A DNA stretch of 64,000 nt from Neisseria sicca (GCF_014054945.1 NZ_CP059566.1:562036-626035), one strand, 5' to 3'; shown: positions 18,398 through 36,536, numbered from the stretch's first letter. Numbers and translations: made by a program. Notes: generated from the sequence alone by a model not told the origin.

Positions 18398-20440
18398 TTA
18401 TAACTCCATTAGTCTATACAAATCATTGTCTAATTTAGCTGTATCTGGTTCTAGAATGTCTATATCCATTCCTTTTTCCTGTAAAGCTAATTTAACTGGG
18501 GAAGGGTCATACTCATCAGGAATTCGTAATAATGATCCATTTGGAATTTCCCGATTTTCTAAAAATGCAATTTTGGTTTTTATATGTGTTAATCTCCATC
18601 CCAAATTACTTATCCACCGATCTGCACCAAAAACACCTAATTTATGGTGCTCTCTCGCTTTATTAAATTGTTCTGTAAGTTGAATTTCTCTAAGCTTTAA
18701 TATTTCTAAAGATGATTCTAATCCTTTAATACAAACGAGTTCTTTACATGTTTCACAATCCCCATGGCGAGAGCATGGCGACATTGCATAATCATGTTCA
18801 CAAATGCCTATTTCCGTTATAGTTGCAATTCCAATTCTATTTTTTCCTAAGTCTTCATAGGTTACTGGAAGATTTAAATGAATTTTATCTAAAAGTGAAG
18901 CATACTCGGGAATAAGTAAATTCCGAACTGCTTCACTTTTTTCTTCTTCTGTCCTGTGATCATAAGCCTTATTATCTGCAATTCTAGCCCTCCCTGCCCA
19001 GTTCGCTAAAGTTAATTCATCCATTCCACCTCTCTCAGCTTTTGTACTTAACCAATGCCTTGCATTGTGTGATAGCAATCTAACAAACTCTCCTTTCGAA
19101 GTAGTTATACAATGCTTTTCCCATAATGATGTTTTAGGGCGTGTATCAGAATAGCAGAATCTATCATTAATAAGATTTACTGTTGGTAATATAAAAGAAA
19201 ATTTTTTAGGGAGAAAATTATCATGAAATTCATTTTCTCTGAATAATAATAAGGCTTCAGAAGCTTTAACGTTTTTATTTTTATCAATATATGGCCAGTA
19301 ATTGAATTTTGAGGTATATTTTTCGTATAAGTATTTCCCTAAAACATTGGGAGTTATAACACCACTATTTTCTTTCATTAACTTTTCAAACCACTTAGTT
19401 TTAATCCCATGCTTTCCATTAATTTCTAAAACCTTACCTATTTCTATTTCAGTTAAAGGTTTTTGAGGTAAATAATGGGATACTTGCATACCTTGATCTG
19501 GTGATATCATTACCGTGTTCGGATTTTCTTCCGCAAACTTTGCTGCTTTTCTTGCTAAAGCTCCTATATCTGTTAAACGTTTGACTGCTTCAATAATCAC
19601 ATCTTGCATGCTACTAGGAACCCATTTCAAACCCTCTTTTCCATTTTTTGCAGGTATCCATCGAATACCTAATTGCTTATTTCCTAGGCTATCTTCTTCC
19701 CATTCTAAGCAATTAACAGATAAAGACATCAACTCAGAACAACGAGATGGAGCAACCATAAGTAGAGCCATAACTGCTGTATAATACTCAGTTTCTTTAT
19801 CTAAATTTGGTGCATCATGAAAGAGTTTGGCTACCAACATCATTTCTTCATCTGTTGGCATTTTACTTGAACGGTATTCTTTTCCTCTTTCATCAAGCAA
19901 TATCGTTAAATCTCTAGGACGTTTATATGGGTTATTCCATAAAGACAAATTTGGAGTAATACCATTTTCACGACAAAAATCAAATAACTTCTCAAGTTGA
20001 TATCCTAATTTATTGACTGATTCAGTATCTTTTTTATATTTTTTCAATACAAGGGTTTCAACTTCATTAATGACTAAATTATCGAGTTGTAATATATCGC
20101 AATTGTCTTTTACATTGTATAAAGCCATTTCAACCATACGTAATGACTCAAGATGCCGTGATAATTGACGAACTGGTTGCTGAGAGTAAACATAACGAAT
20201 GTATGCTTTAGCAAAATCAATAAATGGTTCAGATAACGGCTCATATTGATAGGATGTAGATTTAACCCTATCTGTGGAAAAACGAACTTGAATGTTGTGA
20301 AGATTAAAGGTATCTCTCCATTGATTATTGTCCCAACAATCACTTCCGAAAGCTGTAAGTTTGTTTCTACAGAAAGTGATAAAATTTTCTAAACTGGATT
20401 TTGGATTCTCATGTACTTGGAAAAAAATTGTATTATTCAT
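18398..20440 (-). CDS. tyrosine recombinase 3 of 3 (large, TnpB-like)
   Basis: 680 aa. LLSHNARHWLST (RH motif), LANWAGRARIADNKAYDHRT (W/H...Y). Long N-terminal extension, as in Tn554 TnpB. Confidence 0.7.
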   Translation of the reverse strand: MNNTIFFQVHENPKSSLENFITFCRNKLTAFGSDCWDNNQWRDTFNLHNIQVRFSTDRVKSTSYQYEPLSEPFIDFAKAYIRYVYSQQPVRQLSRHLESLRMVEMALYNVKDNCDILQLDNLVINEVETLVLKKYKKDTESVNKLGYQLEKLFDFCRENGITPNLSLWNNPYKRPRDLTILLDERGKEYRSSKMPTDEEMMLVAKLFHDAPNLDKETEYYTAVMALLMVAPSRCSELMSLSVNCLEWEEDSLGNKQLGIRWIPAKNGKEGLKWVPSSMQDVIIEAVKRLTDIGALARKAAKFAEENPNTVMISPDQGMQVSHYLPQKPLTEIEIGKVLEINGKHGIKTKWFEKLMKENSGVITPNVLGKYLYEKYTSKFNYWPYIDKNKNVKASEALLLFRENEFHDNFLPKKFSFILPTVNLINDRFCYSDTRPKTSLWEKHCITTSKGEFVRLLSHNARHWLSTKAERGGMDELTLANWAGRARIADNKAYDHRTEEEKSEAVRNLLIPEYASLLDKIHLNLPVTYEDLGKNRIGIATITEIGICEHDYAMSPCSRHGDCETCKELVCIKGLESSLEILKLREIQLTEQFNKAREHHKLGVFGADRWISNLGWRLTHIKTKIAFLENREIPNGSLLRIPDEYDPSPVKLALQEKGMDIDILEPDTAKLDNDLYRLMEL

Positions 20441-20442
20441 AA

Positions 20443-21990
20443 TTAATGAGCCTCCATATTTTTTTTCATTTCATTACACGCTTGAACAACATATTCAACA
20501 GCCAATATAATACGATCCTTAGAAGATGCATAATCTATACTTTTAGTTCTTCTTAAACGTTCTTCTTTCTCTTTATACAGTTTATTTAATATTTGTTGAT
20601 GTGGACCATCAACCAAAGGTCTAAATTTAGGACATAAATAACAAGTCTCATAACCAGTTATACAAAAATCATTCGTCCCACATGCGCCTATAGTATCTAC
20701 TCCGTTATTAGTTATTAAAGATGTTGGATCAAATCCTCTCTCACTTTCATTCAAATTAGAAATAATTCTGCCAACAAATGCTTGGGCTAGTTTTCCCATT
20801 TCAGCACCCATAACGCGATCAATATATTGCACTGTATCCGCTGTATTTTCAGTATAGACTTTCACATTTTGTGTATCTGAGTGATCTAATAGTTCTGCTA
20901 TAATCGCTGCACCAACTCCTTTTCTCCCTAGGTTAGTTCCCCTTGTATGACGAAAACGTCTTGCATTAACATGAATGATTTCACCTGTCCGCTCTGAAAC
21001 AGCTTTTTGATGAATACAGAATTTTCGTAATGTGTTTTTCTCTAATGAAGATGTTGAGTAATGAAAAATATCTTTATCTAATAATGAAAGATCAAAACAC
21101 CTATTTTGTATATTCCTTTTCAAAGTATACCAATCGATAAACATTGGTAATCTCATTTTATAATCTGATATAAATGCTTCATCAACCAAACTAAGTAATT
21201 TTTTGTATTGATATTCTATGAAGTTTAAGAGAATTAAATACAAATCCTCTGTGATGGCAAGCTTTTTAAATGTTCCTCTAAATAACCCTCCTCTCTTTTT
21301 AGCCCTAGGGATATTTAGGAAATAATTCCATGTTCCTTGAGAAATTTCCTTTTTCAAGTCTTCAAATTTTAAATGGCGGATTTGAATAGGTCTTCTCGCG
21401 GTAGCTTGAAGTAAGTGAATATATGTATATGTTTCAAATGGAATAAGATCTTCTTTCCAAAGTCTAGCCAGCTCCGTCATTAAAGCCAAAATTTCATTTT
21501 CAGTAAATGCACCTGTATAAGGGCATCTCATTAATACCGCTTTACCTTTGTTGTTTCCACTCAAGGTAAAGCTTTCTAGCAGCAATGCAACTGATTCATC
21601 AACTCCATAATAACCATACTCATGCCATGAGAGCAAAAAACCTTTTAGTGCACCTAAATACCATTCATGATCTTTTCCTAATTTATTTTTCCAATCCAAG
21701 ATTATTGGCACGTTAATATTTTCTAATCTAGTTGAAATTACTAATCGTTGGAACTGTTGGTACATGTGAGATACGTGATAACTTGAATATTTTTCGGCAT
21801 ATATTGCTAATGTCTTTCTGAACCCTTCTAATGTTTTTTTATTAATTCCTAATATGTGTTTAGAAAAATTAATCTTTATTTCTTTGCTTATATGCCAAGA
21901 ATTTTCGTTTTCATCAAATACATATCCATCTCTAGATTGTCTAATAATTTTATTATGATTCATAATCATCAACCTTTTTTTGAAACTCAA
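20443..21990 (-). CDS. tyrosine recombinase 2 of 3
   Basis: 515 aa. HVNARRFRHTRGT (box II RHT) and LLDHSDTQNVKVYTE (H...Y). Overlaps the upstream gene by 38 nt. Confidence 0.75.
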   Translation of the reverse strand: MSFKKRLMIMNHNKIIRQSRDGYVFDENENSWHISKEIKINFSKHILGINKKTLEGFRKTLAIYAEKYSSYHVSHMYQQFQRLVISTRLENINVPIILDWKNKLGKDHEWYLGALKGFLLSWHEYGYYGVDESVALLLESFTLSGNNKGKAVLMRCPYTGAFTENEILALMTELARLWKEDLIPFETYTYIHLLQATARRPIQIRHLKFEDLKKEISQGTWNYFLNIPRAKKRGGLFRGTFKKLAITEDLYLILLNFIEYQYKKLLSLVDEAFISDYKMRLPMFIDWYTLKRNIQNRCFDLSLLDKDIFHYSTSSLEKNTLRKFCIHQKAVSERTGEIIHVNARRFRHTRGTNLGRKGVGAAIIAELLDHSDTQNVKVYTENTADTVQYIDRVMGAEMGKLAQAFVGRIISNLNESERGFDPTSLITNNGVDTIGACGTNDFCITGYETCYLCPKFRPLVDGPHQQILNKLYKEKEERLRRTKSIDYASSKDRIILAVEYVVQACNEMKKNMEAH

Positions 21991-23284
21991 TTTGAAGTTC
22001 TAATAATATCTTGTTAGCTTTTTCTCTAATATAACGTTGATTATAGAAATTACCTGATTTTTCTGACGTATGCCCCATGAGATGCTGTCTTATTTTTGCC
22101 TCTTTTTCAGGGGAGATAAAATCTTTATGGGAAGAATCATGATTTAAATTTTTATTATTCTTATCTACTTTTCGTGAAAAATATAAGTTCCATTCATGAC
22201 GAAAAATATGCGGATGAATAATAGAGAATCTTGGATCTACCTTTTTCATCGTTGGTACAATAACGTTGTCAAAAGAACTTGTACTAATTGGACTCCCTTG
22301 AGTTTTTCCTTTTCGATGAGTTACAAACAAATATGGATGTGTATTCGCATTGGGAACTTTAGAACGATAATTCATAATATAATCATTAAGTAGTTGAGCT
22401 ATCTTTTGTGATATTGGCAAGCGCCTTTCTTTAGTTTTACTAACTGCCTGAATTTTTCTTGTGTCAAATTTATCATCATGCGTTCGCTTTATTGTAACCG
22501 ATGGTTTAGCAGTCCCTATATCGATAAATGGTATTTGAAGTGATAATAGTTCTCCTCTTCTAATTCCTAATTCTTTCAGTAAGATAAACATTAAATGGTT
22601 TCTTTTTCTTATTCCGATATCTTGAAACGGATTATTAGGGTTTGAAAAGTTCGCAATAGACATAAACTCATCTAACAATCCATCGGGTAACTCACTTTCT
22701 GGTTTTATAGATAATGCTTTATGATTCTTAGGTCTTACTCCTTTAATTAGCGTAAGTAATTTTGTTAATTTTTTGATATATTCGTTAGATACACTTATTA
22801 CTTTAGATAGAAATAATATGTATTCTGAAAGTGTTGTTAGCCTATTATATTGGTGACTAAGGGATACAGACGAGTAAATATCAATAAATTGAGTTCGACC
22901 TTTCATTGACACACTTTTTTTTGTACTAATTACATTTTTTTGCTTTTTTACATTTATTCTCATATGTTGAATAAGAGATTCTAATTGATTTTCTGTTAAG
23001 AGTATCTCTTTATGAATCAGATCACTAATAACAAGATTATTCTCTTTTTCCCAGTTCATTAGCCATTGTATGGTTCCTAGTTTATTTCTAATGGTATTTA
23101 CTGCGGATTGATTACGTAGTTCTACTGTTACCCATAGGGTTGAATAAAAATCAGGTATACCAGTTTTCTCATTAACTAACAGGGAAAAGCGTTCTCCATT
23201 TGAAAACAGGATTGTTTCTAGTCTATACATATCTACTAAATTTACAGAGTTAATATATATAAATACTAACAAAGAAGATAACAA
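21953..23284 (-). CDS. tyrosine recombinase 1 of 3 (TnpA-like)
   Basis: 443 aa. C-terminal catalytic domain with R (GIRRGELLSL), HxxR (HPHIFRHEW) and H...Y (LMGHTSEKSGNFYNQRY). Confidence 0.75.
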   Translation of the reverse strand: MLSSLLVFIYINSVNLVDMYRLETILFSNGERFSLLVNEKTGIPDFYSTLWVTVELRNQSAVNTIRNKLGTIQWLMNWEKENNLVISDLIHKEILLTENQLESLIQHMRINVKKQKNVISTKKSVSMKGRTQFIDIYSSVSLSHQYNRLTTLSEYILFLSKVISVSNEYIKKLTKLLTLIKGVRPKNHKALSIKPESELPDGLLDEFMSIANFSNPNNPFQDIGIRKRNHLMFILLKELGIRRGELLSLQIPFIDIGTAKPSVTIKRTHDDKFDTRKIQAVSKTKERRLPISQKIAQLLNDYIMNYRSKVPNANTHPYLFVTHRKGKTQGSPISTSSFDNVIVPTMKKVDPRFSIIHPHIFRHEWNLYFSRKVDKNNKNLNHDSSHKDFISPEKEAKIRQHLMGHTSEKSGNFYNQRYIREKANKILLELQIEFQKKVDDYES

Positions 23285-26051: not shown

Positions 26052-26319
26052 TCGTTTAGTCGGTTTAAAGGTCGTCTGAAAACCCTATTTTTGTTTTCAG
26101 ACGACCTTTTGACGTTTGCAAAACGGGTATTATAAGAATATCTCCGTGCAGAATCAAAGGTGGCGTACATCATTGATGAGCAGATTGACTTGAAACAGAC
26201 AATGCGTGATACATCAATACGGTGCAATATTGCGGCGGTTTAAAGTTGATCTGCGATATTGTCAATCAACGGCGGGACAGAGTAACATTAGAGCTTCGTT
26301 TATCCACCGGTATTTCTTC

Positions 26320-27828
26320 ATGACCACTACGCCCACCAACGTCCTGGCATCCGTCGATTTAGGTTCCAACAGCTTCCGCCTCCAAGTTTGCGAAAACAAC
26401 AACGGACAACTGAAAGTCATCGATTCCTTCAAACAAATGGTGCGTTTTGCCGCCGGTTTGGACGAACATAAAAACCTCGACGAAGCATCACAAGAGCGCG
26501 CCTTGGACTGTTTGGCAAAATTCGGCGAACGGCTGCGCGGGTTCAAACCCGAACAAGTGCGCGTTGTGGCGACCAATACCTTCCGCGTAGCAAAAAATAT
26601 CGCCCAATTCCTACCCAAAGCCGAAGCCGCACTGGGCTTCCCCATCGAAATCATCGCAGGCCGTGAAGAAGCCCGCCTCATTTACACCGGCGTCGTCCAC
26701 ACCCTACCGCCCAACGGCGACAAGATGCTCGTCATCGACATCGGCGGCGGCTCGACCGAATTCGTCATCGGCTCCGACCTCCAGCCGCTCGCTACCGAAA
26801 GCCTGCCCTTAGGCTGCGTCACTTACAGCCTGCGTTTCTTCCAAAACAAAATCACCGCCAAAGACTTCCAAGCCGCCATCTCTGCCGCACGTAACGAAAT
26901 CCAGCGCATCAGCAAACTCATGAAGCGTACAGGTTGGGATTTCGCCATCGGCACATCCGGCTCCGCCAAATCCATCCGCGACCTCATCGCCGCCGAGCTG
27001 CCCCAAGAAGCCGACATCACCTACAAAGGCATGCGCTACCTCGCCGACCGCATCATTGAAGCCGGTTCCGTCAAAAAAGCCAAATTCGAAAGCCTCAAGC
27101 CCGAACGCGTGGAAGTGTTCGCCGGCGGACTGGCCGTCATGATGGCAGCGTTTGAAGAACTCGAACTCACCAAAATGACCGTTACCGAAGCCGCCCTGCG
27201 CGACGGCGTATTCTACGATCTGATTGGGCGAGGTTTGAACGAAGACATGCGCGATCAGACGACCGCTGAGTTCCAAAACCGCTACCACGTCAGCCTCAAC
27301 CAAGCCAAACGCGTCGCCGAAACCGCGCAAGCCTTTATGGACAGCCTGTGCCACGCCAAAAACGTAACCGTCCAAGACCTTGCCCAATGGCAACAATACC
27401 TCGGCTGGGCAGGCAGACTGCACGAAATCGGACTCGACATCGCCCACACCGGCTACCACAAACACTCCGCCTACATCCTCGAAAACGCCGATATGCCCGG
27501 CTTCTCCCGCAAAGAACAAACCATACTCGCGCAACTGGTCATCGGACACCGCGGCGACATGAAAAAAATGGCGGACATCGTCGGTAGCAGCGAAATGCTT
27601 TGGTACGCCGTCCTTTCCCTGCGCCTCGCCGCACTTTTCTGCCGCGCCCGCCTGCCTTTGGATCTGCCGCCGCAAACCCAACTGCGCGCCGACGAAACCG
27701 GCAAAGGCTTCATCCTGCGCATCAGCCAAAACTGGCTCGAACAACACCCCCTAATCGCCGCCGCGCTCGACTACGAAAGCGCGCAATGGCAAAAGATCGA
27801 TATGCCTTTCAACGTGCAGCCTCAATAG
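26320..27828 (+). CDS. ppx: exopolyphosphatase / guanosine pentaphosphate phosphohydrolase (Ppx/GppA family)
   Basis: Start MTTTPTNVLASVDLGSNSFRL (ASKHA fold phosphate-1 motif), DIGGGSTEF (phosphate-2). 502 aa. Confidence 0.85.
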   Translation: MTTTPTNVLASVDLGSNSFRLQVCENNNGQLKVIDSFKQMVRFAAGLDEHKNLDEASQERALDCLAKFGERLRGFKPEQVRVVATNTFRVAKNIAQFLPKAEAALGFPIEIIAGREEARLIYTGVVHTLPPNGDKMLVIDIGGGSTEFVIGSDLQPLATESLPLGCVTYSLRFFQNKITAKDFQAAISAARNEIQRISKLMKRTGWDFAIGTSGSAKSIRDLIAAELPQEADITYKGMRYLADRIIEAGSVKKAKFESLKPERVEVFAGGLAVMMAAFEELELTKMTVTEAALRDGVFYDLIGRGLNEDMRDQTTAEFQNRYHVSLNQAKRVAETAQAFMDSLCHAKNVTVQDLAQWQQYLGWAGRLHEIGLDIAHTGYHKHSAYILENADMPGFSRKEQTILAQLVIGHRGDMKKMADIVGSSEMLWYAVLSLRLAALFCRARLPLDLPPQTQLRADETGKGFILRISQNWLEQHPLIAAALDYESAQWQKIDMPFNVQPQ

Positions 27829-28108: not shown

Positions 28109-29012
28109 ATAGTAAATTAAAAACAAAATAGTACAATACTCAACTTTGAAGGTTTAACCATGGCATACTCTGCGGACTTAAGAAACAAAGCTTTAAACTA
28201 TTACGAACAATGCAAAAACATCAGCCAAACCGCAGCAACGTTTAACTTGTCAAGAAACACGCTTTACCTGTGGATTCGCCTTAAAAAACAAACAGGCAGC
28301 CTAAAACATCAAGTTACCGGTCTAAATGCCGTCAAATTGGATAGGCAAAAACTGGCTCAATATGTTGAGCAACACCAGGATGCCTATCTGCATGAAATCG
28401 CCAAACATTTTGATTGTACGCCAGCCGCCGTTTGCTATGCACTCAAACAGATGGGGATGACGCGCAAAAAAAGACCACCACTTACAAAGAACAAGACCCG
28501 GCCAAAGTAACGCATTATTTGACACAACTGGCCGAATTTTCCGACTACCAACGTGTTTATTTGGATGAAACAGGATTTGACCGCTACCTGTTCCGTCCCT
28601 ATGCCCGTAGCCTGAGAGGGCAAATAGTGAAAGCGCAGATAAGTGGAAAAAGATACCGACGCTTATCTCTGGTGTCCGCACAAGTCGGCAACCGGCTGAT
28701 TGCTCCGATGGTTTATCAAAATACGATGACCGGAGTCTTTTTTGAAGCGTGGTTTCAGCAATGCCTACTGCCCGCATTGACTCAAAAATCGGTGATTATT
28801 TTAGATAATGCACGATTTCACCGTATGGGTGTCTTACGGGAAATGGCGGAAAAATTGGGACATAAGGTATTGCCTCTTGCACCTTATTCACCTGAGCTCA
28901 ACCCGATTGAGAAGGTGTGGGCGAATATTAAGCGGTATCTGCGAACCGTATTGTCTGATTACGCCCGATTTGACGATGCGTTACTGTCCTATTTTGATTT
29001 TAATTGACTATA
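28109..29012 (+). mobile_element. IS630-family insertion sequence
   Basis: Imperfect 22-bp terminal inverted repeats (tatagtaaattaaaaacaaaat / attttgattttaattgactata), each abutting TA. Two overlapping transposase ORFs. Confidence 0.7.
28160..29007 (+). CDS. IS630-family transposase, orfA/orfB joined by programmed -1 frameshift
   Basis: orfA 28160-28510 (HTH). orfB 28414-29007 (DDE: DETGF...DNARFH...SPELNPIEKVW). Slippery A7G (aaaaaaag) at 28463-28470 lies in the overlap. Confidence 0.7.
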
Positions 29013-29084
29013 AAATGTGTCTTATATTTAAGGTGTCGGTATGTCCGCCTCCTCATTTCCATTCATTTGATTGAAATTTCTCCC

Positions 29085-29957
29085 ATGCTCCGTTTCGCTC
29101 TATTCGCCGATATACATGGCAAATTCTTACTTCCTTTTAAGCTGGTACATCACTACCAGCAAATTACAGGCAAAAGCATAGATTTGATTCTCCAATGTGG
29201 TGATATGGGTGCTTTCCCCAGTAAAGATTGTATGGATAAAGCCACCTTGCGTCATGCTGCAAAAGATCGCAATGAATTGGGATTTATGGACGATTTTGTG
29301 CAACCGAATCCTCAAATCGCCCGATTTCTCGATAAACTTAATATCGATATGCTTTGCGTACGTGGCAATCATGAAGATCATGGTTTTTTAGACGAATTAG
29401 AACGGCAAAGCGAGCAGGCTGCTTTTACCATTGATGCTTATGAGCGCGTTTGGGTACTCAAAACGGGGGATTCGTTTGTGTTTCAAAAAGGAGGAGAATC
29501 GCTGGAAATAATCGGCATCGGCCGTATTGGCGATAGAAAACAACGACCTCATGGCGAATTTATCCAAGAATATGAACGTCAGAATCTGCGCCGTTTGGTT
29601 AAAGATTGCCTGAAAAGCAAACATGACCCCGATGTGCTGATTACGCATGATAAGTTTGGTGACAGCCAGCGCGGTTATGGCTCTGTTGAAATTGCAGAAG
29701 TGATGGATAAGCTTGCTTTTGCCTACCATTTTTACGGACATACTGGAGAAGCATATCAGCAAAATTTGGCAGACAACGGCATTACACAGTCGGTAAAAAT
29801 TAAAGAATTGGAATTTGACGGAGAGGGTAAGTTGTCGGAGGGGTGTATGTTGATTTTGGAAGTAGAGCAGCAGAAGGGTGACAAGCATTTTACGCTTTCA
29901 CCTGTACCATTAAACGAGATTATCCATTTTATGCGGGATACTTGGCGATATTACTGA
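29085..29957 (+). CDS. calcineurin-like metallophosphoesterase
   Basis: Start MLRFALFADIHG. GDMGAF, RGNHEDH and GHTG motifs. 290 aa. Confidence 0.7.
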   Translation: MLRFALFADIHGKFLLPFKLVHHYQQITGKSIDLILQCGDMGAFPSKDCMDKATLRHAAKDRNELGFMDDFVQPNPQIARFLDKLNIDMLCVRGNHEDHGFLDELERQSEQAAFTIDAYERVWVLKTGDSFVFQKGGESLEIIGIGRIGDRKQRPHGEFIQEYERQNLRRLVKDCLKSKHDPDVLITHDKFGDSQRGYGSVEIAEVMDKLAFAYHFYGHTGEAYQQNLADNGITQSVKIKELEFDGEGKLSEGCMLILEVEQQKGDKHFTLSPVPLNEIIHFMRDTWRYY

Positions 29958-30308
29958 TGTAAAAGGGGCGGATAAGGAAATCCGTCCTTTTATTTTGGTT
30001 GATTGTTTTAGATAGTTCGAACCCTTAATGATATTTGATTTGGAACCGCTGTAAGAAATGGTAACGGCAAAGGTAGTAGAGGCATTATCGGCTAATGGGC
30101 TGCTTAATAGTGCTCGGAATGAATGGCAAACAACTTACTAAATCAATATTTGTTTTCAGGCTGTCTTTTTAATACAATCTGTCCATGCTTTTCAAAGCGA
30201 TTAGCAGCGGCTCTGCGTGTTTAGCGGCAGGCAGAACTGTGCGGGCGGCGTGCCGATTCCGCATCCTGCGCTACGAAAGTGGCGGAAAGCAGAAAACCAA
30301 AAGCAAAA

Positions 30309-30380
30309 GCGTGTTTCGTCTAGTGGATAAGACGGCGGGCAACGGGTCCGCAAACGTGGGTTCGAATCCCATAGCACAAA
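30309..30380 (+). tRNA. tRNA-like sequence 1 (possible pseudo-tRNA; anticodon-loop caACGgg with A33)
   Basis: D-arm tcgtctagtggataagac, T-arm gtgggttcgaatcccat. Acceptor gcgtgtt/agcacaa, with two terminal mismatches and no CCA. Confidence 0.35.
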
Positions 30381-30388
30381 GCTGATGG

Positions 30389-30461
30389 AAGTGTTTAGCT
30401 CACTCGGTAGAGCATCAGAATTTCATTCTGACGGTAGCGGGTTCGATTCCCGCAACACAAG
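30389..30461 (+). tRNA. tRNA-like sequence 2 (anticodon TTC, Glu-like; atypical acceptor stem)
   Basis: D-arm tagctcactcggtagagca, anticodon arm tcaga-atTTCat-tctga, T-arm gcgggttcgattcccgc. Acceptor aagtgtt/aacacaa with two A-A mismatches and no CCA. Confidence 0.4.
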
Positions 30462-30463
30462 CA

Positions 30464-30539
30464 TTTGAATTAGCTCATTGGGTAGAGCAAAGGACTCATA
30501 ATCCTTGTGTAACAGGTTCGATTCCTGTATTCAAAACCA
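30464..30539 (+). tRNA. tRNA with CAT anticodon (Met or Ile2), encoded CCA
   Basis: Full cloverleaf: acceptor tttgaat/attcaaa, D-arm tagctcattgggtagagca, anticodon arm aagga-ctCATaa-tcctt, T-arm acaggttcgattcctgt, discriminator A + CCA. U1-A72 is unusual. Confidence 0.55.
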
Positions 30540-31007
30540 AGCCTGTCGGGGCTTTATCCGACACTATCCTGTCACGATAGAAAATGGTTTGTAAAACCGA
30601 CATTTATTGGTCTCAAAAACCAAAAACGCAGTACCGCAACCTGCTGCTGCCGCTTTCTGCGCGGCGCGGTGTCGGACGGCGTTTCAGGCAGCCTGCACCA
30701 TTGGGGTCGTCTGAAACCTATCCGCCGCCACACCGCAAGGACAACGGGCAAGGCTTGCGGCCCGGCTGACGCAAAGGCGGGCATGTTACCGGCGCACGGC
30801 AAAACGGTTTAGGCAAGATGTGAAACTTAAGCCCTGCGCTGCTTTCATGCTCCCCGATACACACACGGGCGCGCCGCCTCTGGCTGTTGCACAAGCGGCA
30901 GCGGCAGGTTGCCCCTATTTCTTCGGGTTGCCGTTTTCAGGCGGCCTGAAACGGGATTTGGGGCAACGGAAATGCCCAAGTCCAATCCATTTTAAAAAGG
31001 AAACGTC

Positions 31008-32993
31008 ATGTTCAAAAATTTCGTCGTCAAACCCACCGAACACCTTATCGTTCTGCTGGATGGCAGCCTGCACACCGTTCTCAATGCGGGGAAACACACT
31101 ATTTGGCATTGGGGCAAGGAAATTGAAACACACAAACAGGACGCGACCGTGCTGCATGTGCAGTGGAACGGCATCGGCAGTTTGTTGAAAATCGCTTCGG
31201 AACGCAAAAAGGCAGAAAAATTCCTGCAAATTGTCCATAACCCTGCCGGACACAATACACTGGTATGGCACGATGAAATGCCCGTATTCACCATAACCGA
31301 CAATACGGACTATTGGGCGTTTTTCCGTCCTGAAAAAGGCGAATTGAACACGCTCACGCTGGCGCACAACGAATACTGGCTGCCTGAAAACGTGCAGGAA
31401 ACGCTGCTGTTGCGCAACCAAGTGCCGTCAAACTGCGAGAAATTTGTTGTGGAGCAACACGAACGCCTGCTTATCCGCATCAACGGGCGTTTGCAGCGCG
31501 TGCTGGGCGAAGGGCGGTATCTGCTGCAAAGCAAGGCGAGAGCGAAAAATAACGAAATTGAAATCGAACGGCAACACACCGCCAACGCAATGTATCATCA
31601 ATGGGAAGACGCGCAGAAATGGGCGAAAGAGCAGCCTGAAAATCCGCAATGGCTGGTGCTGGAAAGCCCTGTGGGGCAAAACACGTTGGCGTGGCATCAG
31701 GATTTTGGCGCAAAGGTCGTGGCAAGCGGCGAACACGCAGCGTTTTGGTTGCCGGAAAATGGCGAAATCGAAACGCACACGCAGCCGAAAACCGAATACT
31801 GGCTGCCCGAAAATGTGCAGGCTGCTTTGCTGGCACACATCACGTTGGACAAACCCCTGCAAAAATATACCGTTAAAGCCAACGAATGCCTGCTGATTAC
31901 CGAGCGCAACCGCCTGATGCGCGTGCTGGGCGAAGGCGATTATGTGCTGCTGTTGGGCGAGGAACATAAAGCCCTGTTTGCCGATACAGGCATACCCGTG
32001 TATGAAAATACGGCGCAACTGGCGCAATGGGCGGCGCAAAATCCCGAACTCGCAGCGGCGCATTGGCAGCGCGTGGAAGCCGGCGAAAACGAATTGCTGC
32101 TGTGGTCGCAAAACGGCAAGCTGCAAAACCTGATCCGCCCCAAAGAAACAGCGTGGTTCTGGCGCGAAGCGGCTCAGCCGTATGAAATCCAACGTATTGA
32201 TTTATCCCAAGGTTTAGCAATCGATGCGGATACAGTGAAGCAGTTGCAGAACATCAATTTCGGCGGCCATCCTGTGTTTAAAAATGCAGTGCACACGGTA
32301 AACGTACCCGAACACCATCAGGGATTGGTCTATATCGACAACGTGCAGCAACCGCCTCTGACGCAGGGGCGTTACCACTATTGGCTGGTAAACCAGACGG
32401 TCGGCAGCCAAGTGGCGGATTTGCGTTTGCAGACTTGCGAAGTATCGGGACAGGAGCTGCTGACTGAAGATAAGGTTACCGTACGCGCCAATGTGGTGTG
32501 CAACTACCGGATTACGGACGCGCCCAAATGGTTTGCCCAGCATCAATCGCCCGAAGAATATCTCTACCGCGAATTGCAGTTCGCCATCCGCGCGCTCATC
32601 GGCAGTAAAAGTATGGACACACTGTTGGCGGACAAACAGGGCTTGGATACGGAGCTGACCGCGCTCATCCGCGCCAAAGTGCCGCTGGGCGCGGAAATCG
32701 ACAGTGCAGGTGTGAAAGACATTATCCTACCGGGCGAAATCCGCAGCATCTTAACGCGCGTAGTGGAAGCCGAAAAATCCGCCCAAGCCAACAACATCCG
32801 CCGCCGCGAGGAAACCGCCGCCACACGCTCGCTGCTGAACACCGCGCGCGTGATGGAGGAAAACCCGACTGCCCTGCGGCTGAAAGAATTGGAAACATTG
32901 GAAAAAGTTACCGAGAAAATCGACAAGATTTCCGTGTACGGCGGATTGGACGGCGTGTTGAAGGGCTTGATTAATATTCAGCAGCCGAAATAG
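31008..32993 (+). CDS. SPFH/band-7 (stomatin/prohibitin-like) domain protein with three N-terminal ~120-aa repeats
   Basis: C-terminal ~220 aa have the SPFH pattern (VTVRANVVCNYRITD...LGAEIDSAGVKDIILPGEI...EAEKSAQANNIRRREETAA). N-terminal region has three degenerate repeats, each containing (Y/F)WLPEN and RVLGEG(R/D)Y. Confidence 0.65.
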   Translation: MFKNFVVKPTEHLIVLLDGSLHTVLNAGKHTIWHWGKEIETHKQDATVLHVQWNGIGSLLKIASERKKAEKFLQIVHNPAGHNTLVWHDEMPVFTITDNTDYWAFFRPEKGELNTLTLAHNEYWLPENVQETLLLRNQVPSNCEKFVVEQHERLLIRINGRLQRVLGEGRYLLQSKARAKNNEIEIERQHTANAMYHQWEDAQKWAKEQPENPQWLVLESPVGQNTLAWHQDFGAKVVASGEHAAFWLPENGEIETHTQPKTEYWLPENVQAALLAHITLDKPLQKYTVKANECLLITERNRLMRVLGEGDYVLLLGEEHKALFADTGIPVYENTAQLAQWAAQNPELAAAHWQRVEAGENELLLWSQNGKLQNLIRPKETAWFWREAAQPYEIQRIDLSQGLAIDADTVKQLQNINFGGHPVFKNAVHTVNVPEHHQGLVYIDNVQQPPLTQGRYHYWLVNQTVGSQVADLRLQTCEVSGQELLTEDKVTVRANVVCNYRITDAPKWFAQHQSPEEYLYRELQFAIRALIGSKSMDTLLADKQGLDTELTALIRAKVPLGAEIDSAGVKDIILPGEIRSILTRVVEAEKSAQANNIRRREETAATRSLLNTARVMEENPTALRLKELETLEKVTEKIDKISVYGGLDGVLKGLINIQQPK

Positions 32994-33340
32994 GATTTTT
33001 GGCCGCCTGAACACGCCGCACGGCAGAAAAGCAGCCTGTACTTGGAAATTTGGAAGTGCAGGCTGCTTTTTTGGATAAAGTGTATGAGGTCTTTGCAATA
33101 ATATAAGTTACTAAATTTTTATGCTCAATATCATTTCCAAAATGAAAAACCTTTCTGATTTTTCCTACTTTTTACTCAATATCAGAAAGGTTTTAGTTAA
33201 TTGAAAATTTTTTGGCGTACTCTTAGGTGCCAAATTTCGTTAATAGACCATTTTTGCAAAGGTCTCTGTAAGTGGCTTTCTCAAATATGAGCTTTTCTGA
33301 CATTGCAGTAATAGATTGCGAAGTAGGATTTATTGAACAT

Positions 33341-33814
33341 TCAATACAAAATATGTTTCTTTAAATAGCCTGATTCAATCAGTGGGAAAACATCAGACAG
33401 CGGGGAAATCAATTTAACATCTGCGTGATGAATCATTACGTGTTCATTTTGGTTTAATTCATTCTTATATCTTCTGTACAAATTTTTATCATTATCGAAA
33501 AACCAAACTAAAGCATATATCTTCCCATGAATATTTTTTGATTCATGATATAACTTTCTAAATTTATCTCTATTTCCTTCTTTATTCAATCTTTCAAAGC
33601 TATTGCTTTGCGTGGATTTCGACCCTTCTTCTCCAATTAATTTACTTTCCAATGCTTTGGCATGGGCTAATCTTGAAACATCACTATCATTTTTACCTGA
33701 ACGAAAATTCATATTTCCTCCGGCTATTGCCGTAGTTAAGAAAAATAAACCTAACAGAGCTATGAGCATTTTCTGCCATTTCGTTTTGTCGGTTTTAAAA
33801 ATGAGGATTCCCAT
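33341..33814 (-). CDS. hypothetical secreted protein, low GC
   Basis: 157 aa, N-terminal signal/TM (MLIALLGLFFLTTAIAGG). The gene and surrounding ~700 bp are about 35% GC. Confidence 0.5.
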   Translation of the reverse strand: MGILIFKTDKTKWQKMLIALLGLFFLTTAIAGGNMNFRSGKNDSDVSRLAHAKALESKLIGEEGSKSTQSNSFERLNKEGNRDKFRKLYHESKNIHGKIYALVWFFDNDKNLYRRYKNELNQNEHVMIHHADVKLISPLSDVFPLIESGYLKKHILY

Positions 33815-33870
33815 AATAATGCTCCTTTCTGAGAGGTCGTCTGAAAAATCATTTTCAGACGACCTGAACT

Positions 33871-34116
33871 TTATTGCGGCAAGACAAGATTGTCTAACGT
33901 CAGATCCGCATCGCGCAAGCTTTGTATGTATTGCTCAAACACGGTTTGATAATCGTCCGACTGTATCACAGCGGAAAACATCGGTTGCTGAGGATGCTCG
34001 CCCTCGGGCAGTTCGATTAGCACGGCTTTGCCTTCCAAGTCGGCACATGTCGTCTGAAAACGGGGAAGGACAGAGGAAGGTTGTGGCGTGGCAGTAAGGT
34101 GGAGTTCGTAATACAT
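33871..34116 (-). CDS. small hypothetical protein
   Basis: 81-aa ORF with normal GC. Flanked by a DUS pair upstream (33830-33870). Confidence 0.4.
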   Translation of the reverse strand: MYYELHLTATPQPSSVLPRFQTTCADLEGKAVLIELPEGEHPQQPMFSAVIQSDDYQTVFEQYIQSLRDADLTLDNLVLPQ

Positions 34117-34138
34117 GGTTTCGGACGACCTTAATGTT

Positions 34139-34870
34139 CTAGGTTGTTTCGTTTATTTGTTTCGGTAGGCCGGATTGCAGGAAATCGGACATTTCGCGAT
34201 AAAACGTCATAACGGTTTTCATGTTTTGCCGTTCCGGTTCGCTTGTTTGAGGTCGAATGTTTATTTCATCTATCAATTCGCGCAACGGGCGGCGTTTGGT
34301 GGGATTGGCTTCGTCCAATATAAAATACAGAATTCCCCCGTCTTGTATCAACCTGCGGCGGGCATCCATTATATGACTGTTAAAAAATAGATTTTGAATC
34401 AGATTGGTGCGTTGTTCATCATTTTGTGGAGGTTTAGCGGTCTCAGGAAGCAACACGGTTTTGTTGCATATGCAGGACTGAGACTGATTGAGCGCAAAAA
34501 CGGGCAGGTAAAACATCATTAACATTGCCTTCAGAATGTCGCAGAAATGCTCTTCAGCCTCGTCATCGCCCTGCTGCAGACAAGCGGGAAGTTGGCAGGT
34601 TTGAAGGGTAAAGTCACATTCGCTGCGGCCTGTAGGCAAACCCAGTCCCAGATCCAAATAAAAATGACCGTCCAGTTCGATAAAATGCCATGGTGCGCGG
34701 TTGGCGCGTACGCGCGGCAGATGCAGATAGGGATTGCGGCAAATCCTTAGGTACAGGCGGATCAGATGGGCAATATTACCGCAATAAGCAGGGTTGAGTT
34801 GACGTACGCGGTTAATGCGGACGATCTTTTCTTTTGGACGGAGGAAGCAGGGCGGTTGTTTGGTTTTCAT
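34139..34870 (-). CDS. hypothetical protein
   Basis: 243-aa ORF, Cys-rich. No family recognised. Confidence 0.45.
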   Translation of the reverse strand: MKTKQPPCFLRPKEKIVRINRVRQLNPAYCGNIAHLIRLYLRICRNPYLHLPRVRANRAPWHFIELDGHFYLDLGLGLPTGRSECDFTLQTCQLPACLQQGDDEAEEHFCDILKAMLMMFYLPVFALNQSQSCICNKTVLLPETAKPPQNDEQRTNLIQNLFFNSHIMDARRRLIQDGGILYFILDEANPTKRRPLRELIDEINIRPQTSEPERQNMKTVMTFYREMSDFLQSGLPKQINETT

Positions 34871-34950
34871 TAGAATGGTTGGGTGGTTTTTGTCGTAGCC
34901 AGGTGTGTTTAAATTAGTTTGGCGTAGGGGGGGCGGTACGCACGCGGTTT

Positions 34951-35041
34951 ATTCTGTTAAGATGACCTCAATACTTTCTTTGAGGGTATATGAAATATTT
35001 GCTTTTTAACAACACCTTATTACTGGTCAACATGGAGGTTG
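34951..35041. repeat. ~90-bp repeat, copy 1 (ctcaatactttctttgagg...tttaacaa...aacatggagg)
   Basis: Shares about 75% identity with 35711-35800. Contains hairpin cctcaa-N8-ttgagg. Confidence 0.55.
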
Positions 35042-35379
35042 CCTGAAACACAACTTTCAGACAACCTTTATTGTAATGTGTTCAGCCGTCGTAACACCTA
35101 CGACGCATTAGACAACCTGATCTACCGCAGCTACCCGACGGCGAAAACCAATATGGCCTAGAAAACCAGCTCGTCCGCACCGAAATCAAAAAGCCCGCCG
35201 GGCCATACCAAGATTTAGACATACACCTAAGAGGTTACTAGCAAGACTATTTCAAAAAGTAGTCAGCAGCAAAAGAAGAAAGAATTAGAGGTGTCAGTGG
35301 AGTATATGTTAGAGACAGCAAAAGCTTGGTTTATGTTGAAGGAATATTCGAAATTATTAGATTACCTTAGGAGATTATC

Positions 35380-35703
35380 ATGGATGTGACATTATTTAAT
35401 TTTCAGACATTTTGGGAGGCAAACGCTGATGAAGACTATCGTGAAGATATTATCAGAATGTCTATTGCACTTATGACATTTCTTAAAAAGAATAGTTTAC
35501 TTATTGATATTGAACCCTTTAATGAGGATGGCTCTATCAAAGAAGATTTGATCATTCGAAAATCCAATGTAACTGATGAAGGATTCCAATTATTTGTTAA
35601 ACCAGTAAATAATTGGTGGAATGCTTTGGATAGGGGAACTCCTCCTGAGAAAGTTACTATTTTGGAGAATGGCTTGAAAAAAATTCGGGCTGCGAAAAAG
35701 TAA
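35380..35703 (+). CDS. small hypothetical protein, low GC (immunity-protein-like cassette)
   Basis: 107 aa, about 33% GC, strong RBS (aggagattatcATG). Bracketed by the two ~90-bp repeat copies. Confidence 0.5.
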   Translation: MDVTLFNFQTFWEANADEDYREDIIRMSIALMTFLKKNSLLIDIEPFNEDGSIKEDLIIRKSNVTDEGFQLFVKPVNNWWNALDRGTPPEKVTILENGLKKIRAAKK

Positions 35704-35710
35704 TTTTATA

Positions 35711-35800
35711 GTTCAGACGATCTCAATACTTTCTTTGAGGTCGTCTGAACTATTTGTTCTTTAACAATATTACTAGCAGTTAACATAGAGGTCGTCTGAA
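35711..35800. repeat. ~90-bp repeat, copy 2 (DUS-containing variant)
   Basis: gatctcaatactttctttgaggtcgtctgaac...tttaacaatattactagcagttaacatagaggtcgtctgaaaacc. Confidence 0.55.
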
Positions 35801-35909
35801 AACCGAATCCAAAGTCGTCTGAAAATCTACTTCGAACCCCATCAAGCATTTATAATCCTGCTTTTCAGACGACCTTTTGAACATCCGTTCTCTCAATAAA
35901 ATTGACCTT

Positions 35910-36536
35910 ATGAAACCCAAATTCATCACTCTGGACGGCATAGACGGCGCGGGCAAATCGACCAATCTTGCCGTTATCCGCCGATGGTTCGAATCCCACG
36001 ACCTTCCCGTATTGTTCACCCGCGAGCCGGGCGGTACGCCTGTCGGCGAGGCTTTGCGCGAAATTTTGTTGAACCCTGAAACCAAGGCGGGATTGCGCGC
36101 GGAGACGTTGATGATGTTTGCCGCGCGGCAGCAGCATCTGGAAGACGTTATCCTGCCTGCGCTGGCAGACGGCATTCATGTCGTTTCCGACCGTTTTACC
36201 GATGCGACTTTCGCGTATCAGGGTGGCGGGCGCGGCGTACCCCTGCAAGATATTGAAATGTTGGAAAATTGGGTGCAGGGCGGGTTTGGTCCTGATTTGA
36301 CGTTGCTGCTGGACGTGCCGCTGGAAGTGTCGATGGCGCGTATCGGGCAGACGCGCGAGAAAGACCGTTTCGAGCAGGAGCAGGCGGATTTTTTCACCCG
36401 CGTGCGTGCTGTTTATCTCGAACGCGCCGCCGCGCATCCCGAACGCTACGCGCTTATCGACGGCAACCGGAGTTTGGAAGAGGTGAGGGCGGATATCGAA
36501 CATGCGTTGGCGCGCAGTTTCGGTATGGATGTTTAA
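35910..36536 (+). CDS. tmk: thymidylate kinase
   Basis: MKPKFITLDGIDGAGKST P-loop. DRF/TDATFAYQ LID region. Confidence 0.9.
   Translation: MKPKFITLDGIDGAGKSTNLAVIRRWFESHDLPVLFTREPGGTPVGEALREILLNPETKAGLRAETLMMFAARQQHLEDVILPALADGIHVVSDRFTDATFAYQGGGRGVPLQDIEMLENWVQGGFGPDLTLLLDVPLEVSMARIGQTREKDRFEQEQADFFTRVRAVYLERAAAHPERYALIDGNRSLEEVRADIEHALARSFGMDV

What the first reader, a model, noticed from the sequence alone, without database searches (positions are those of the whole stretch)
30300..30545. Tandem array of three tRNA-like sequences with non-canonical acceptor stems
Three forward-strand cloverleaf-like units lie head to tail (30309-30380, 30389-30461, 30464-30539). Unit 3 is a complete tRNA with anticodon CAT and an encoded CCA, but it starts with U1-A72. 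Units 1 and 2 have good D, anticodon (TTC in unit 2) and T arms. However, their acceptor stems have two terminal mismatches (gcgtgtt/agcacaa; aagtgtt/aacacaa) and lack CCA, and unit 1 has A33. They could be pseudo-tRNAs, tRNA-derived structural elements, or a phage or mobile-element-type tRNA cluster. The array sits beside an IS630 copy and a duplicated metallophosphoesterase gene, which is consistent with an integration hot spot.
Basis: seen in the sequence. Interest (0 to 1): 0.55.

Follow-up and report, generated by a model that had tools for sequence, protein, structure and literature searches.

The report
tRNA mimics of a Band-7 module
The three odd tRNA-like genes are neither broken tRNAs nor a phage cluster: they are the RNA half of a small cassette whose protein half is a soluble stomatin-like (Band-7/SPFH) protein, a pairing predicted by computer in bacterial RNA-repair operons but never studied experimentally.

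Summary
ARAGORN and Rfam both call three head-to-tail tRNA-like units at the stated coordinates. U1 and U2 have 1-72 and 2-71 mismatches and no CCA, and U1 has A33. U3 is canonical and carries ACCA.

They are not a pseudo-tRNA or integration hot spot. They lie about 470 nt upstream of a 661-aa soluble SPFH/Band-7 gene. Together these form a roughly 2.9-kb cassette (about 30140-33070) that stays intact in oral Neisseria strains whose flanking genes differ.

Homologues of this protein in other Proteobacteria are also directly preceded by tRNA-like units, usually arranged as RtcR | tRNA-like(s) - Band-7 - RtcB (-RtcA) - RlaP. [quoted passage not shown]

A frayed acceptor end is a family trait: the outer three pairs are unpaired in about half of 24 units.

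In Neisseria populations, U2 and U3 vary about 5-9 times less than synonymous sites. The U1 'anticodon' loop is hypervariable in both sequence and length.

The Neisseria version has three units and a triple-repeat protein. It has no RtcB or RtcR within 64 kb. I rate it a new variant of a known, uncharacterised kind.

The parts
30140..33070 (+). Whole cassette: upstream region, three tRNA-like units, leader, SPFH/Band-7 gene and terminator
   Evidence: blastn homology to Neisseria loci with different left and/or right flanks starts at 30131-30140 and ends at 33070-33073 (L036, L039, L040, L041, L042).
30150..30178 (+). Candidate sigma-70 promoter TTGTTT-N17-TACAAT (weak -35)
   Evidence: Read by eye. 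The consensus scan did not report it, so it is unverified. No sigma-54 promoter is present (at chance level). The upstream gene has its own 12-bp terminator at 29962-29991, so the cassette needs its own promoter.
30309..30380 (+). U1: tRNA-like unit with a 5-bp acceptor stem (G1.A72, C2.A71), A33, no CCA, and a hypervariable 'anticodon' loop and D loop
   Evidence: ARAGORN; Rfam 34.3 bits. Loop alleles CAACGGG, CATAGGG, CATTAGG and CATTAATTAGG in 28 arrays. Loop pi is 0.37 against 0.062 at synonymous sites.
30389..30461 (+). U2: tRNA-like unit with a Lys/Phe-type D arm, loop AUUUCAU (UUC), 5-bp acceptor stem (A1.A72, A2.A71), no CCA; nearly invariant in the population
   Evidence: 51.4 bits, local 3-68. 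pi 0.011. AA/AA ends in all 27 arrays that matched the search pattern, and also in L054 by direct reading. Same body plus UUC loop sits upstream of SPFH homologues in 12 other loci.
30464..30539 (+). U3: canonical-looking tRNA (CAU) with a 7-bp acceptor stem, A73 and encoded CCA; 37% GC; nearly invariant
   Evidence: 67.7 bits. pi 0.007. The loop is CTCATAA in 26 of the 27 pattern-matched arrays (L054 also has it) and CTTATAA in L031.
30540..31007 (+). Leader between the array and the SPFH start codon; begins with hairpin TGTCGG-N8-CCGACA (30547-30566)
   Evidence: Sequence. pi about 0.05, close to neutral. No Rfam family at E<=10 other than noise.
31008..32993 (+). 661-aa soluble SPFH/Band-7 ('slipin') protein: three ~141-aa N-terminal repeats, an SPFH domain (433-602) and a C-terminal long helix
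   Evidence: Pfam Band_7, 2.4e-22. 100% identical to the N. sicca ATCC 29256 protein. 34-47% identical to the RtcB-linked homologues. Repeats. No TM segment. AF2 model and stomatin/HflK/MVP fold matches.
33027..33070 (+). Terminator hairpin AAAAGCAGCCTG...CAGGCTGCTTTT closing the cassette
   Evidence: Sequence and conservation at the right boundary in all strains.

Best explanation
The three units are the non-coding RNA component of a self-contained tRNA-mimic + Band-7/SPFH cassette. [quoted passage not shown]

Shown:
- The units have a tRNA cloverleaf.
- They always lie immediately upstream of, and on the same strand as, an orthologous SPFH gene.
- U2 and U3 are under strong purifying selection.
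- Frayed acceptor ends and absence of CCA recur in the family, and anticodons are not conserved in it.
- The protein is soluble and has the SPFH + long-helix architecture of ring- or cage-forming stomatin/HflK/prohibitin proteins.

Inferred:
- The array is transcribed with the SPFH gene from its own promoter and is cut by the tRNA-processing enzymes into tRNA-shaped RNAs.
- These RNAs are not used as ordinary decoders (at least not U1 and U2). Instead they bind the SPFH oligomer as cofactors or adaptors, as Y RNAs do for Ro60. The resulting particle would recognise or handle damaged tRNA.
- In canonical loci the particle would work with RtcB, RtcA and RlaP after RtcR senses cleaved tRNA. In Neisseria it would work without a linked ligase.
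- The conserved core is the pair U2 (frayed, no CCA) + U3 (intact, CCA). U1 is an extra, weakly constrained copy.
For: Detection.

Linkage: a DNA pattern taken only from U2 (D arm, UUC loop, T loop) hit 23 places in 185,579 genomes, and 13 of them have a homologue of the window's SPFH protein directly downstream. In L011, L019, L024 and L030 the order is RtcR | tRNA-like - Band_7 - RtcB (NCBIfam RtcR equivalog 773 bits).

Unbiased converse: starting from SPFH homologues, 4 of the 6 loci that have upstream sequence show an Rfam tRNA hit 200-370 nt upstream (L048, L049, L051, L053). By eye, the other two (L050, L052) keep a T-arm-like hairpin. Context is RtcR/sigma-54 promoter, RtcB, RtcA and RlaP.

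Fold: in 24 units the D, anticodon and T stems are 99, 95.5 and 100% paired, 19 of 21 pairs show double-sided changes, and 0 of 500 shuffles reach the observed score. The outer three acceptor pairs are unpaired in 10-11 units.

Selection.

Cassette integrity with varying flanks.

Protein.

Literature: b7a-tRNA adjacent to Band-7 and RtcB was predicted by Burroughs & Aravind 2016 and described as not validated (bioRxiv 10.1101/312249). A P. aeruginosa SPFH gene lies inside the rtc locus (PMC13086221). RtcR is activated by 5' tRNA halves ending in 2',3'-cyclic phosphate (PMC7790460).
Against: - No RtcB or RtcR in the 64-kb window or in any of the Neisseria loci (tblastn), so the link to RNA repair is by homology only.
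- Nothing shows expression, processing or protein binding.
- The original 2016 paper could not be read, so I could not compare my units with its b7a-tRNA sequences. Membership rests on the secondary description.
- U3 is indistinguishable from a real tRNA and may simply be one.
- U1 shows a C.A mismatch in its anticodon stem in 3 of 10 loci. It may be decaying rather than functional.
- My genome scan imposed the UUC loop, so UUC is not a family feature.
Confidence: 0.75

Rival explanations
1. Decoy or bait (same identity, different mechanism). The tRNA mimics are sacrificial targets for anticodon-loop or acceptor-end tRNases (polymorphic toxins, phage or prophage nucleases). They would either soak up the nuclease or, once cut, report the attack. 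The variable U1 loop would track the attackers.
For: The U1 loop has at least 4 alleles, differing by 2-3 adjacent substitutions or a 4-nt insertion, between otherwise near-invariant stems. Loop pi is 0.37, about 6 times the synonymous level. Four alleles occur among 10 loci that encode the identical protein. Family anticodons are diverse. In Salmonella, cut tRNA halves are the signal that activates RtcR (PMC7790460).
Against: U2 and U3, the conserved core, barely vary in their loops (one variant each among the 27 arrays tabulated). U1 also carries a stem-breaking variant, and all its alleles have A33, so it is a poor mimic of a real anticodon loop. A slippage hot spot (ATTA duplication) could explain part of the variation. 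No nuclease gene is linked.
Confidence: 0.2
2. Cis-acting leader. The cloverleaves serve only as processing or stability signals (RNase P / RNase E entry or 5'-end protection) or as a regulatory element for the SPFH mRNA, with no function for the released RNAs.
For: The units are always on the same strand and upstream of the gene. In canonical loci they lie between the sigma-54 promoter and the start codon, within a long structured leader.
Against: The 470-nt stretch between array and start codon evolves nearly neutrally. Full tertiary-interaction nucleotides (G18 G19, T-loop GTTCRA) and an encoded CCA are kept, which a mere cleavage signal would not need.
Confidence: 0.12
3. Ordinary tRNA operon. 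These are working tRNA-Arg, tRNA-Glu and tRNA-Met genes of the host that happen to lie upstream of an SPFH gene.
For: All three pass the Rfam gathering score. U3 is fully canonical, with A73-CCA. Units are separated by 8 and 2-3 nt, as in tRNA operons (from knowledge: E. coli thrU-tyrU-glyT-thrT-tufB).
Against: - U1 has A33, and in some strains an 11-nt loop or the triplets UUA or UAG.
- Judged against the E. coli GluRS identity set recalled from knowledge, U2 lacks G1-C72, U2-A71, U11-A24, the 13-22-46 triple and the deletion of 47. It has a Lys/Phe-type D arm, two terminal mismatches and no CCA.
- The U3 anticodon is UAU in L031.
- The linkage to one SPFH clade across three proteobacterial classes would then be a coincidence.
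Confidence: 0.05
4. Remnant of a phage or mobile-element tRNA cluster at an integration hot spot.
For: U3 has low GC (37%). IS630 lies 1.3 kb upstream. Flanks differ between strains. The window is a mosaic of GC content.
Against: No integrase or phage genes next to it. No homologous unit in IMG/VR. The phage BLAST hits are generic tRNA similarity at 79% over 38% of the query. The IS630 is strain-specific. U2 and U3 are under purifying selection.
Confidence: 0.04

Closest known systems
b7a-tRNA (band-7-associated tRNA) with Band-7/SPFH protein in RtcB RNA-repair systems (Burroughs & Aravind, NAR 2016; known to me through bioRxiv 10.1101/312249 and my own recollection of the abstract)
   Same: A tRNA-like cloverleaf RNA encoded next to a Band-7 gene. 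The window's Band-7 protein is 34-47% identical to the RtcB-linked ones. The tRNA-like units share the UAGCUCA...GGUAGAGCA D arm and GGUUCGA T loop.
   Different: No RtcB, RtcA, RlaP or RtcR within 64 kb, and no sigma-54 promoter. Three tandem units instead of one or two. The protein has three N-terminal repeats (661 aa against about 378). U1 loop hypervariability and the population data have not, to my knowledge, been described.
Rsr (Ro60) with YrlA/YrlB Y RNAs in the Salmonella rsr-yrlBA-rtcBA operon
   Same: A tRNA-mimicking ncRNA without a free, usable CCA end, encoded beside a ring-shaped RNA-binding or scaffold protein in an RtcR-controlled operon. The role in RNA repair or decay is proposed and the exact function is unknown.
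   Different: YrlA is one RNA in which the tRNA-like domain is fused to a Ro60-binding stem. Rfam YrlA scores only 20.8-23.8 bits here against a gathering score of 69. The partner protein is SPFH, not TROVE.
Vault particle (major vault protein + vault RNAs)
tRNA arrays of phages and mobile elements / tRNA genes cotranscribed with protein genes (e.g. E. coli tufB operon; from knowledge)
   Same: Head-to-tail tRNA units a few nucleotides apart, upstream of a protein gene on one strand.
   Different: Those are decoding tRNAs with intact acceptor stems and 7-nt loops with U33. Here two of the three units fail those criteria, and the set is tied to a single protein family.

Membership tests
Canonical tRNA (Rfam RF00005) | Cloverleaf scoring above the gathering threshold | tested here: met
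   34.3, 51.4 and 67.7 bits against 29. ARAGORN calls all three.
Canonical tRNA (Rfam RF00005) | 7-bp acceptor stem, 7-nt anticodon loop with U33, and 3' N73-CCA (encoded or addable on a paired end) | tested here: not met
   U1 and U2 have 1-72 and 2-71 unpaired and no CCA. U1 has A33, and an 11-nt loop in some strains. Only U3 meets all of these.
Canonical tRNA (Rfam RF00005) | Aminoacylation and use in decoding | not testable with these tools
   Needs acid-gel Northern blots or tRNA-seq of charged species.
b7a-tRNA / Band-7 RNA-repair module | tRNA-like RNA encoded immediately beside a Band-7/SPFH gene | tested here: met
   The array ends 469 nt upstream of the SPFH start codon, on the same strand. 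This arrangement holds in every Neisseria locus that extends far enough.
b7a-tRNA / Band-7 RNA-repair module | The Band-7 protein belongs to the clade that is linked to RtcB | tested here: met
   34-47% identity over 315-412 aa, including the N-terminal non-Pfam domain, to proteins that sit between RtcR and RtcB.
b7a-tRNA / Band-7 RNA-repair module | Linkage to RtcB ligase (and RtcR, RtcA, RlaP) | tested here: not met
   tblastn with RtcB and RtcR finds nothing in the window or in 17 Neisseriaceae loci. The rest of the genome was not available.
b7a-tRNA / Band-7 RNA-repair module | Sequence or structure match to the b7a-tRNA alignment of the original paper | not tested
   The paper is not held and there is no Rfam family for it.
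YrlA / bacterial Y RNA | Rfam RF02553 match and adjacency to Rsr (Ro60/TROVE) | tested here: not met
   20.8-23.8 bits against a gathering score of 69, and the hits span a T arm plus the next unit's D arm. Neighbouring proteins are Metallophos and Band_7, not TROVE.
Phage / integrative-element tRNA cluster | Integrase, phage genes or att repeats nearby; homologues in viral contigs | tested here: not met
   Neighbours. IMG/VR pattern scans gave 0 or only non-tRNA chance matches.
tmRNA | tRNA-like domain plus tag reading frame | tested here: not met
   ARAGORN reports no tmRNA. Rfam tmRNA_permuted scores 13 bits.

The most novel reading that the evidence does not exclude
The Neisseria cassette is a free-standing ribonucleoprotein. 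A soluble SPFH ring or cage (stomatin/HflK-like, with MVP-like repeated N-terminal domains) would carry two conserved tRNA mimics, one with a CCA end and one with a frayed end. A third mimic's anticodon-like loop would be kept polymorphic in the population as bait for tRNA-cutting toxins. This would be a bacterial, vault/Ro-like tRNA-surveillance or anti-tRNase immunity particle that works without a dedicated ligase.
Probability: 0.15. Interest if true: 0.85.

Novelty: new variant of a known kind. Interest (0 to 1): 0.55.

Why it matters
The Band-7/b7a-tRNA pairing is a ten-year-old computational prediction. The library searched here held no experimental follow-up.

A minimal cassette of RNAs plus one protein, in a cultivable and naturally transformable commensal (N. 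sicca ATCC 29256), separates the RNP from RtcB/RtcR. That makes its function directly testable.

If the RNAs do bind an SPFH oligomer, the result would extend this family from membrane scaffolds to an RNA-binding role. It would also add a third bacterial-to-eukaryotic parallel alongside Ro-Y RNA and vault-vtRNA.

On the practical side, genome annotators will call these units tRNA-Arg, tRNA-Glu and tRNA-Met (or tRNA-Stop/Ile in L031). That distorts tRNA-set and codon-usage analyses.

Tried and rejected
- **Phage origin.** blastn against 50,697 phage records gave only generic 79% tRNA similarity. IMG/VR scans with U1, U2 and U3 patterns gave nothing tRNA-like.
- **First version of the genome pattern.** I miscounted one N and it did not match the window. 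It was corrected.
- **Metallophosphoesterase as part of the system.** Rejected as an obligatory part. It has its own strong terminator and is absent upstream of the cassette in L036 and L039-L042. A Metallophos gene does sit beside RtcR in P. luteoviolacea, so a loose association is not excluded.
- **Apparent 52-58% protein identity with a near-identical array in L035 and L037.** I briefly read this as horizontal transfer. The nucleotide identity is 88.6% (L035) and 97.2% (L037), so the low figures are frameshift artefacts of error-prone assemblies. L035, L037 and L044 were therefore excluded from the allele counts.
- **Sigma-54 promoter in Neisseria.** Only a 2-mismatch match lacking the -12 GC, at chance frequency.
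- **YrlA, tmRNA and other Rfam families.** All below threshold.
- **PADLOC defence models.** No meaningful hit for the SPFH protein or its neighbours.
- **Thermodynamic fold of the whole leader.** It does not reproduce cloverleaves (z = -2.1) and is uninformative.
- **AbiEii-like gene downstream.** The hit is precomputed and 'weak', seen in L054. Pfam on the window's corresponding ORFs gave nothing even at E<=1.
- **Conchiformibius L025.** It has three paralogous units with perfect acceptor stems downstream of ftsH, but the contig ends before any SPFH gene could be seen.

Full report
**1. The observation**

ARAGORN finds only three tRNA genes in the 64-kb window, all on the + strand: 30309-30380 (Arg-ACG), 30389-30462 (Glu-UUC) and 30464-30539 (Met-CAU). 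Rfam's tRNA model scores them 34.3, 51.4 and 67.7 bits against a gathering score of 29.

For U2 the model matches only positions 3-68. For U1 the alignment flags pairs 1-72 and 2-71 as non-standard.

Reading the sequence directly gives:

| Unit | Acceptor stem | Anticodon loop | Tail after position 72 |
|---|---|---|---|
| U1 | GCGTGTT/AGCACAA | CAACGGG (A33) | A, no CCA |
| U2 | AAGTGTT/AACACAA | AUUUCAU | G-CA |
| U3 | UUUGAAU/AUUCAAA (seven pairs) | CUCAUAA | A-CCA |

**2. Surroundings**

Upstream lie Ppx/GppA (26206-27828), an IS630 copy (28160-29007) and a metallophosphoesterase gene (29004-29957). The metallophosphoesterase gene is followed by a strong 12-bp terminator at 29962-29991.

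Downstream, starting 469 nt after U3, is a 661-aa ORF (31008-32993). Its only Pfam domain is Band_7/SPFH, at residues 433-602.

The IS630 is absent from otherwise syntenic Neisseria loci. The 'duplicated' metallophosphoesterase is only a 28-aa fragment at 15683-15766. The protein is 100% identical to one from Neisseria sicca ATCC 29256.

**3. What the units are linked to**

I scanned one genome per species (185,579 genomes) with a pattern taken only from U2: GGTAGAGCA-N6-TTTCA-N15-GTTCGA. It gave 23 hits.

Thirteen of these have a homologue of the window's SPFH protein immediately downstream. They include Aliikangiella, Photobacterium, Luteimonas, Rhizobacter, a Hyphomonadaceae MAG and other Neisseria. 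In L011, L019, L024 and L030 the gene order is RtcR (divergent) | tRNA-like unit(s) - Band_7 - RtcB.

That scan imposed the UUC loop, so I also went the other way. A profile of five of these proteins retrieved more than 7,800 relatives, annotated 'slipin family protein'. I fetched seven of their loci. In L047 the contig starts 128 nt before the gene, so upstream sequence is available for six.

Vibrio quintilis, Pseudoalteromonas luteoviolacea and the metagenomic loci show: RtcR, a TGGCAC-N5-TTG sigma-54 promoter, a roughly 600-nt non-coding stretch, Band_7, RtcB, sometimes RtcA, and the RlaP nucleotidyltransferase.

Four of the six loci have an Rfam tRNA hit 200-370 nt upstream of the Band-7 start. 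The ARAGORN anticodons in three of these were CCG, GAU and GAC. The other two loci keep a T-arm hairpin. The anticodon is therefore not conserved in the family.

**4. Identity**

[quoted passage not shown] I could not obtain the original paper. A 2026 paper notes an SPFH gene inside the P. aeruginosa rtc locus but does not mention any RNA. No other paper in the library mentions b7a-tRNA.

**5. Family anatomy**

I aligned 24 units from 14 loci. All but U1 share the D arm UAGCUCA...GGUAGAGCA and the T arm GGUUCGAnUCC.

Counting a standard cloverleaf on this alignment gives:
- D, anticodon and T stems 99, 95.5 and 100% paired.
- Double-sided changes at 19 of 21 pairs. No shuffle out of 500 reaches the observed covariation, and sliding the partners drops pairing to 33-45%.
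- Good pairing for the four inner acceptor pairs, but pairs 1-72, 2-71 and 3-70 are unpaired in 10-11 units.

Rfam likewise aligns many of these units only locally, at positions 3-68, 4-67, 5-66 or 6-65. The 'non-canonical acceptor stem' is therefore a property of the family and not an accident of this genome.

Units with intact stems tend to carry N73-CCA: Nsic_U3, L012_a and L013_a. Aliik_b and Pslut also carry it, though only 5 of their 7 acceptor pairs form. The most frayed units do not carry N73-CCA. This suggests a two-RNA design of one CCA-bearing and one frayed unit. That is an observation on few loci, not a rule.

**6. Population data in Neisseria**

A metagenome scan and look-ups of near-identical proteins gave 28 usable arrays.

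In ten loci with full coverage, nucleotide diversity (pi) was as follows:

| Region | pi |
|---|---|
| SPFH third codon positions | 0.062 |
| Leader | 0.050 |
| U2 | 0.011 |
| U3 | 0.007 |
| U1 overall | 0.109 |
| U1 anticodon loop | 0.37 |
| U1 D loop | 0.25 |

Among ten loci that encode the identical protein P0008, U2 and U3 together have one variable column in 148 nt. The 3' leader has 0.076 variable columns per nt.

The U1 loop, between the stems GCGGG and UCCGC, exists as CAACGGG (12 arrays), CAUAGGG (9), CAUUAGG (3) and CAUUAAUUAGG (4). All alleles keep C32-A33 and a 3' GG. Four of these alleles occur with the identical protein.

U1's stems change at about the neutral rate, and 3 of 10 loci carry a C.A mismatch in its anticodon stem. 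Therefore U2 and U3 are clearly functional. U1 is weakly constrained, and its loops vary faster than neutral sites. Either diversifying selection or a slippage hot spot could cause that.

Single variants change the U2 loop to AUUGGGU (L045) and the U3 anticodon to UAU (L031). ARAGORN then labels the L031 units 'tRNA-Stop' and 'tRNA-Ile'.

**7. The cassette**

Homology between strains with different left and right neighbours runs from about 30140 to 33070. This stretch holds about 170 nt upstream of U1, the array, the leader, the SPFH gene and a terminator hairpin (33027-33070).

A possible sigma-70 promoter (TTGTTT-N17-TACAAT, 30150-30178) is visible by eye, but the consensus scan did not report it. 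There is no sigma-54 promoter.

tblastn finds no RtcB or RtcR in the window or in any Neisseria locus. The metallophosphoesterase is not part of the cassette.

**8. The protein**

It has no hydrophobic segment; the maximum Kyte-Doolittle 19-residue mean is 0.85. It has three ~141-aa N-terminal repeats. Relatives have one repeat (about 378 aa), two (about 540 aa) or three (660-745 aa).

From established knowledge, all solved SPFH proteins with such a helix form large rings or cages. A soluble oligomeric scaffold is thus a reasonable inference, but it has not been shown.

**9. Mechanism**

Shown: linkage, fold, selection and the family traits above.

Inferred: the array is transcribed with the gene and processed into tRNA-shaped RNAs. 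At least U2 and U3 act with the SPFH oligomer, as Y RNAs do with Ro60.

In canonical loci this would happen after RtcR has sensed 5' tRNA halves ending in 2',3'-cyclic phosphate (PMC7790460), and alongside RtcB, RtcA and RlaP.

I hold the identity at about 0.75-0.85. For the specific mechanism, the cofactor/adaptor reading is about 0.35. The rivals are a decoy or bait role (0.2) and a purely cis-acting leader (0.12). An ordinary tRNA operon (0.05) and a phage or hot-spot remnant (0.04) are poorly supported.

**10. Verdict**

The finding is real. The interpretation as pseudo-tRNAs at an integration hot spot is not supported. The element belongs to a computationally predicted but uncharacterised class.

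The Neisseria version is a distinct variant: three units, a triple-repeat protein, no linked ligase or regulator, and a polymorphic loop.

Interest is moderate to good, mainly because this minimal cassette makes an old prediction testable.

Noticed in passing
L048-L053, about 3530-4000 (intergenic RtcR | Band_7): The canonical leaders look like a large composite ncRNA. After a sigma-54 promoter comes a conserved 5' module (gamma: CCGGTGCG..CTGTAA..CACGTATGCCG; beta: CCGCCGGTGC..CTGCATGCCGCGCC). Next comes a T-arm-only 'half tRNA', then a full tRNA-like unit. In the betaproteobacterial loci this is followed by GGTCGAAAGACC..CGCCGAAYGCG. None of this matches an Rfam family.
   Followed up: partly
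L049 3700-3727; L053 3766-3793; L023 (Luteimonas) just 3' of the UUC unit: Directly after the frayed tRNA-like unit there is a 5-bp stem with a 7-nt loop that looks like a free-standing anticodon stem-loop (CTGGA-CTACGAA-TCCAG, CTGGA-CTTGAAA-TCCAG, CCAGA-CTGTGAA-TCTGG).
   Followed up: no
L053 2019-2862 and L049 2176-2805: Arrays of 8 and 3 canonical-looking tRNA genes (Glu, Asp, Phe, Arg, Tyr, His, Leu, Gln / Glu, Arg, Gln), followed by an HNH-endonuclease gene, take the place of RtcR upstream of the b7a unit - Band_7 - RtcB - RlaP.
   Followed up: no
L025 5126-5349 (Conchiformibius MAG): Three paralogous units with anticodons UCU, UUC and UUU share almost the same perfect acceptor stem (TTTGAAT/ATTCAAA) as the window's U3. 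They lie just downstream of ftsH, and the contig ends before any SPFH gene could be seen.
   Followed up: partly
window 28160-29007: The IS630-family element (HTH_Tnp_IS630 + DDE_3 in two overlapping frames) is inserted between Ppx/GppA and the metallophosphoesterase gene. It is absent at this site in L026, L031 and L034. The first 17 codons of the 29004 ORF are not shared with the other strains.
   Followed up: partly
window 15683-15766: A 28-aa stretch 79% identical to the C-terminus of the metallophosphoesterase. This is the only basis for the 'duplicated' gene.
   Followed up: partly
window 33100-36500 (GC 0.35-0.48), ORFs 33341-33814(-), 33871-34116(-), 34139-34870(-): A low-GC block lies right after the cassette, and its ORFs have no Pfam, NCBIfam or PADLOC match. 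In the near-identical locus L054 the gene at the position of 33871-34780 is a single 303-aa product with a precomputed 'weak' AbiEii hit, so the window's copy may be split.
   Followed up: partly
window 18001-23000, 42001-43000, 48001-50000: Several islands of 28-33% GC sit in a 50-60% GC background, suggesting a mosaic, horizontally supplemented region.
   Followed up: no
L031 (record titled Neisseria meningitidis strain 1273_NMEN): This locus is 98.8% identical to the N. sicca-type window over 3.1 kb and carries the cassette. The species label of the record may be wrong, or the contig may be a contaminant.
   Followed up: no
L051 278-1717 (P. luteoviolacea): A 479-aa Metallophos gene lies next to RtcR in a canonical Band_7-RtcB-RtcA-RlaP locus. 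This echoes the metallophosphoesterase beside the Neisseria cassette and may or may not be coincidence.
   Followed up: no
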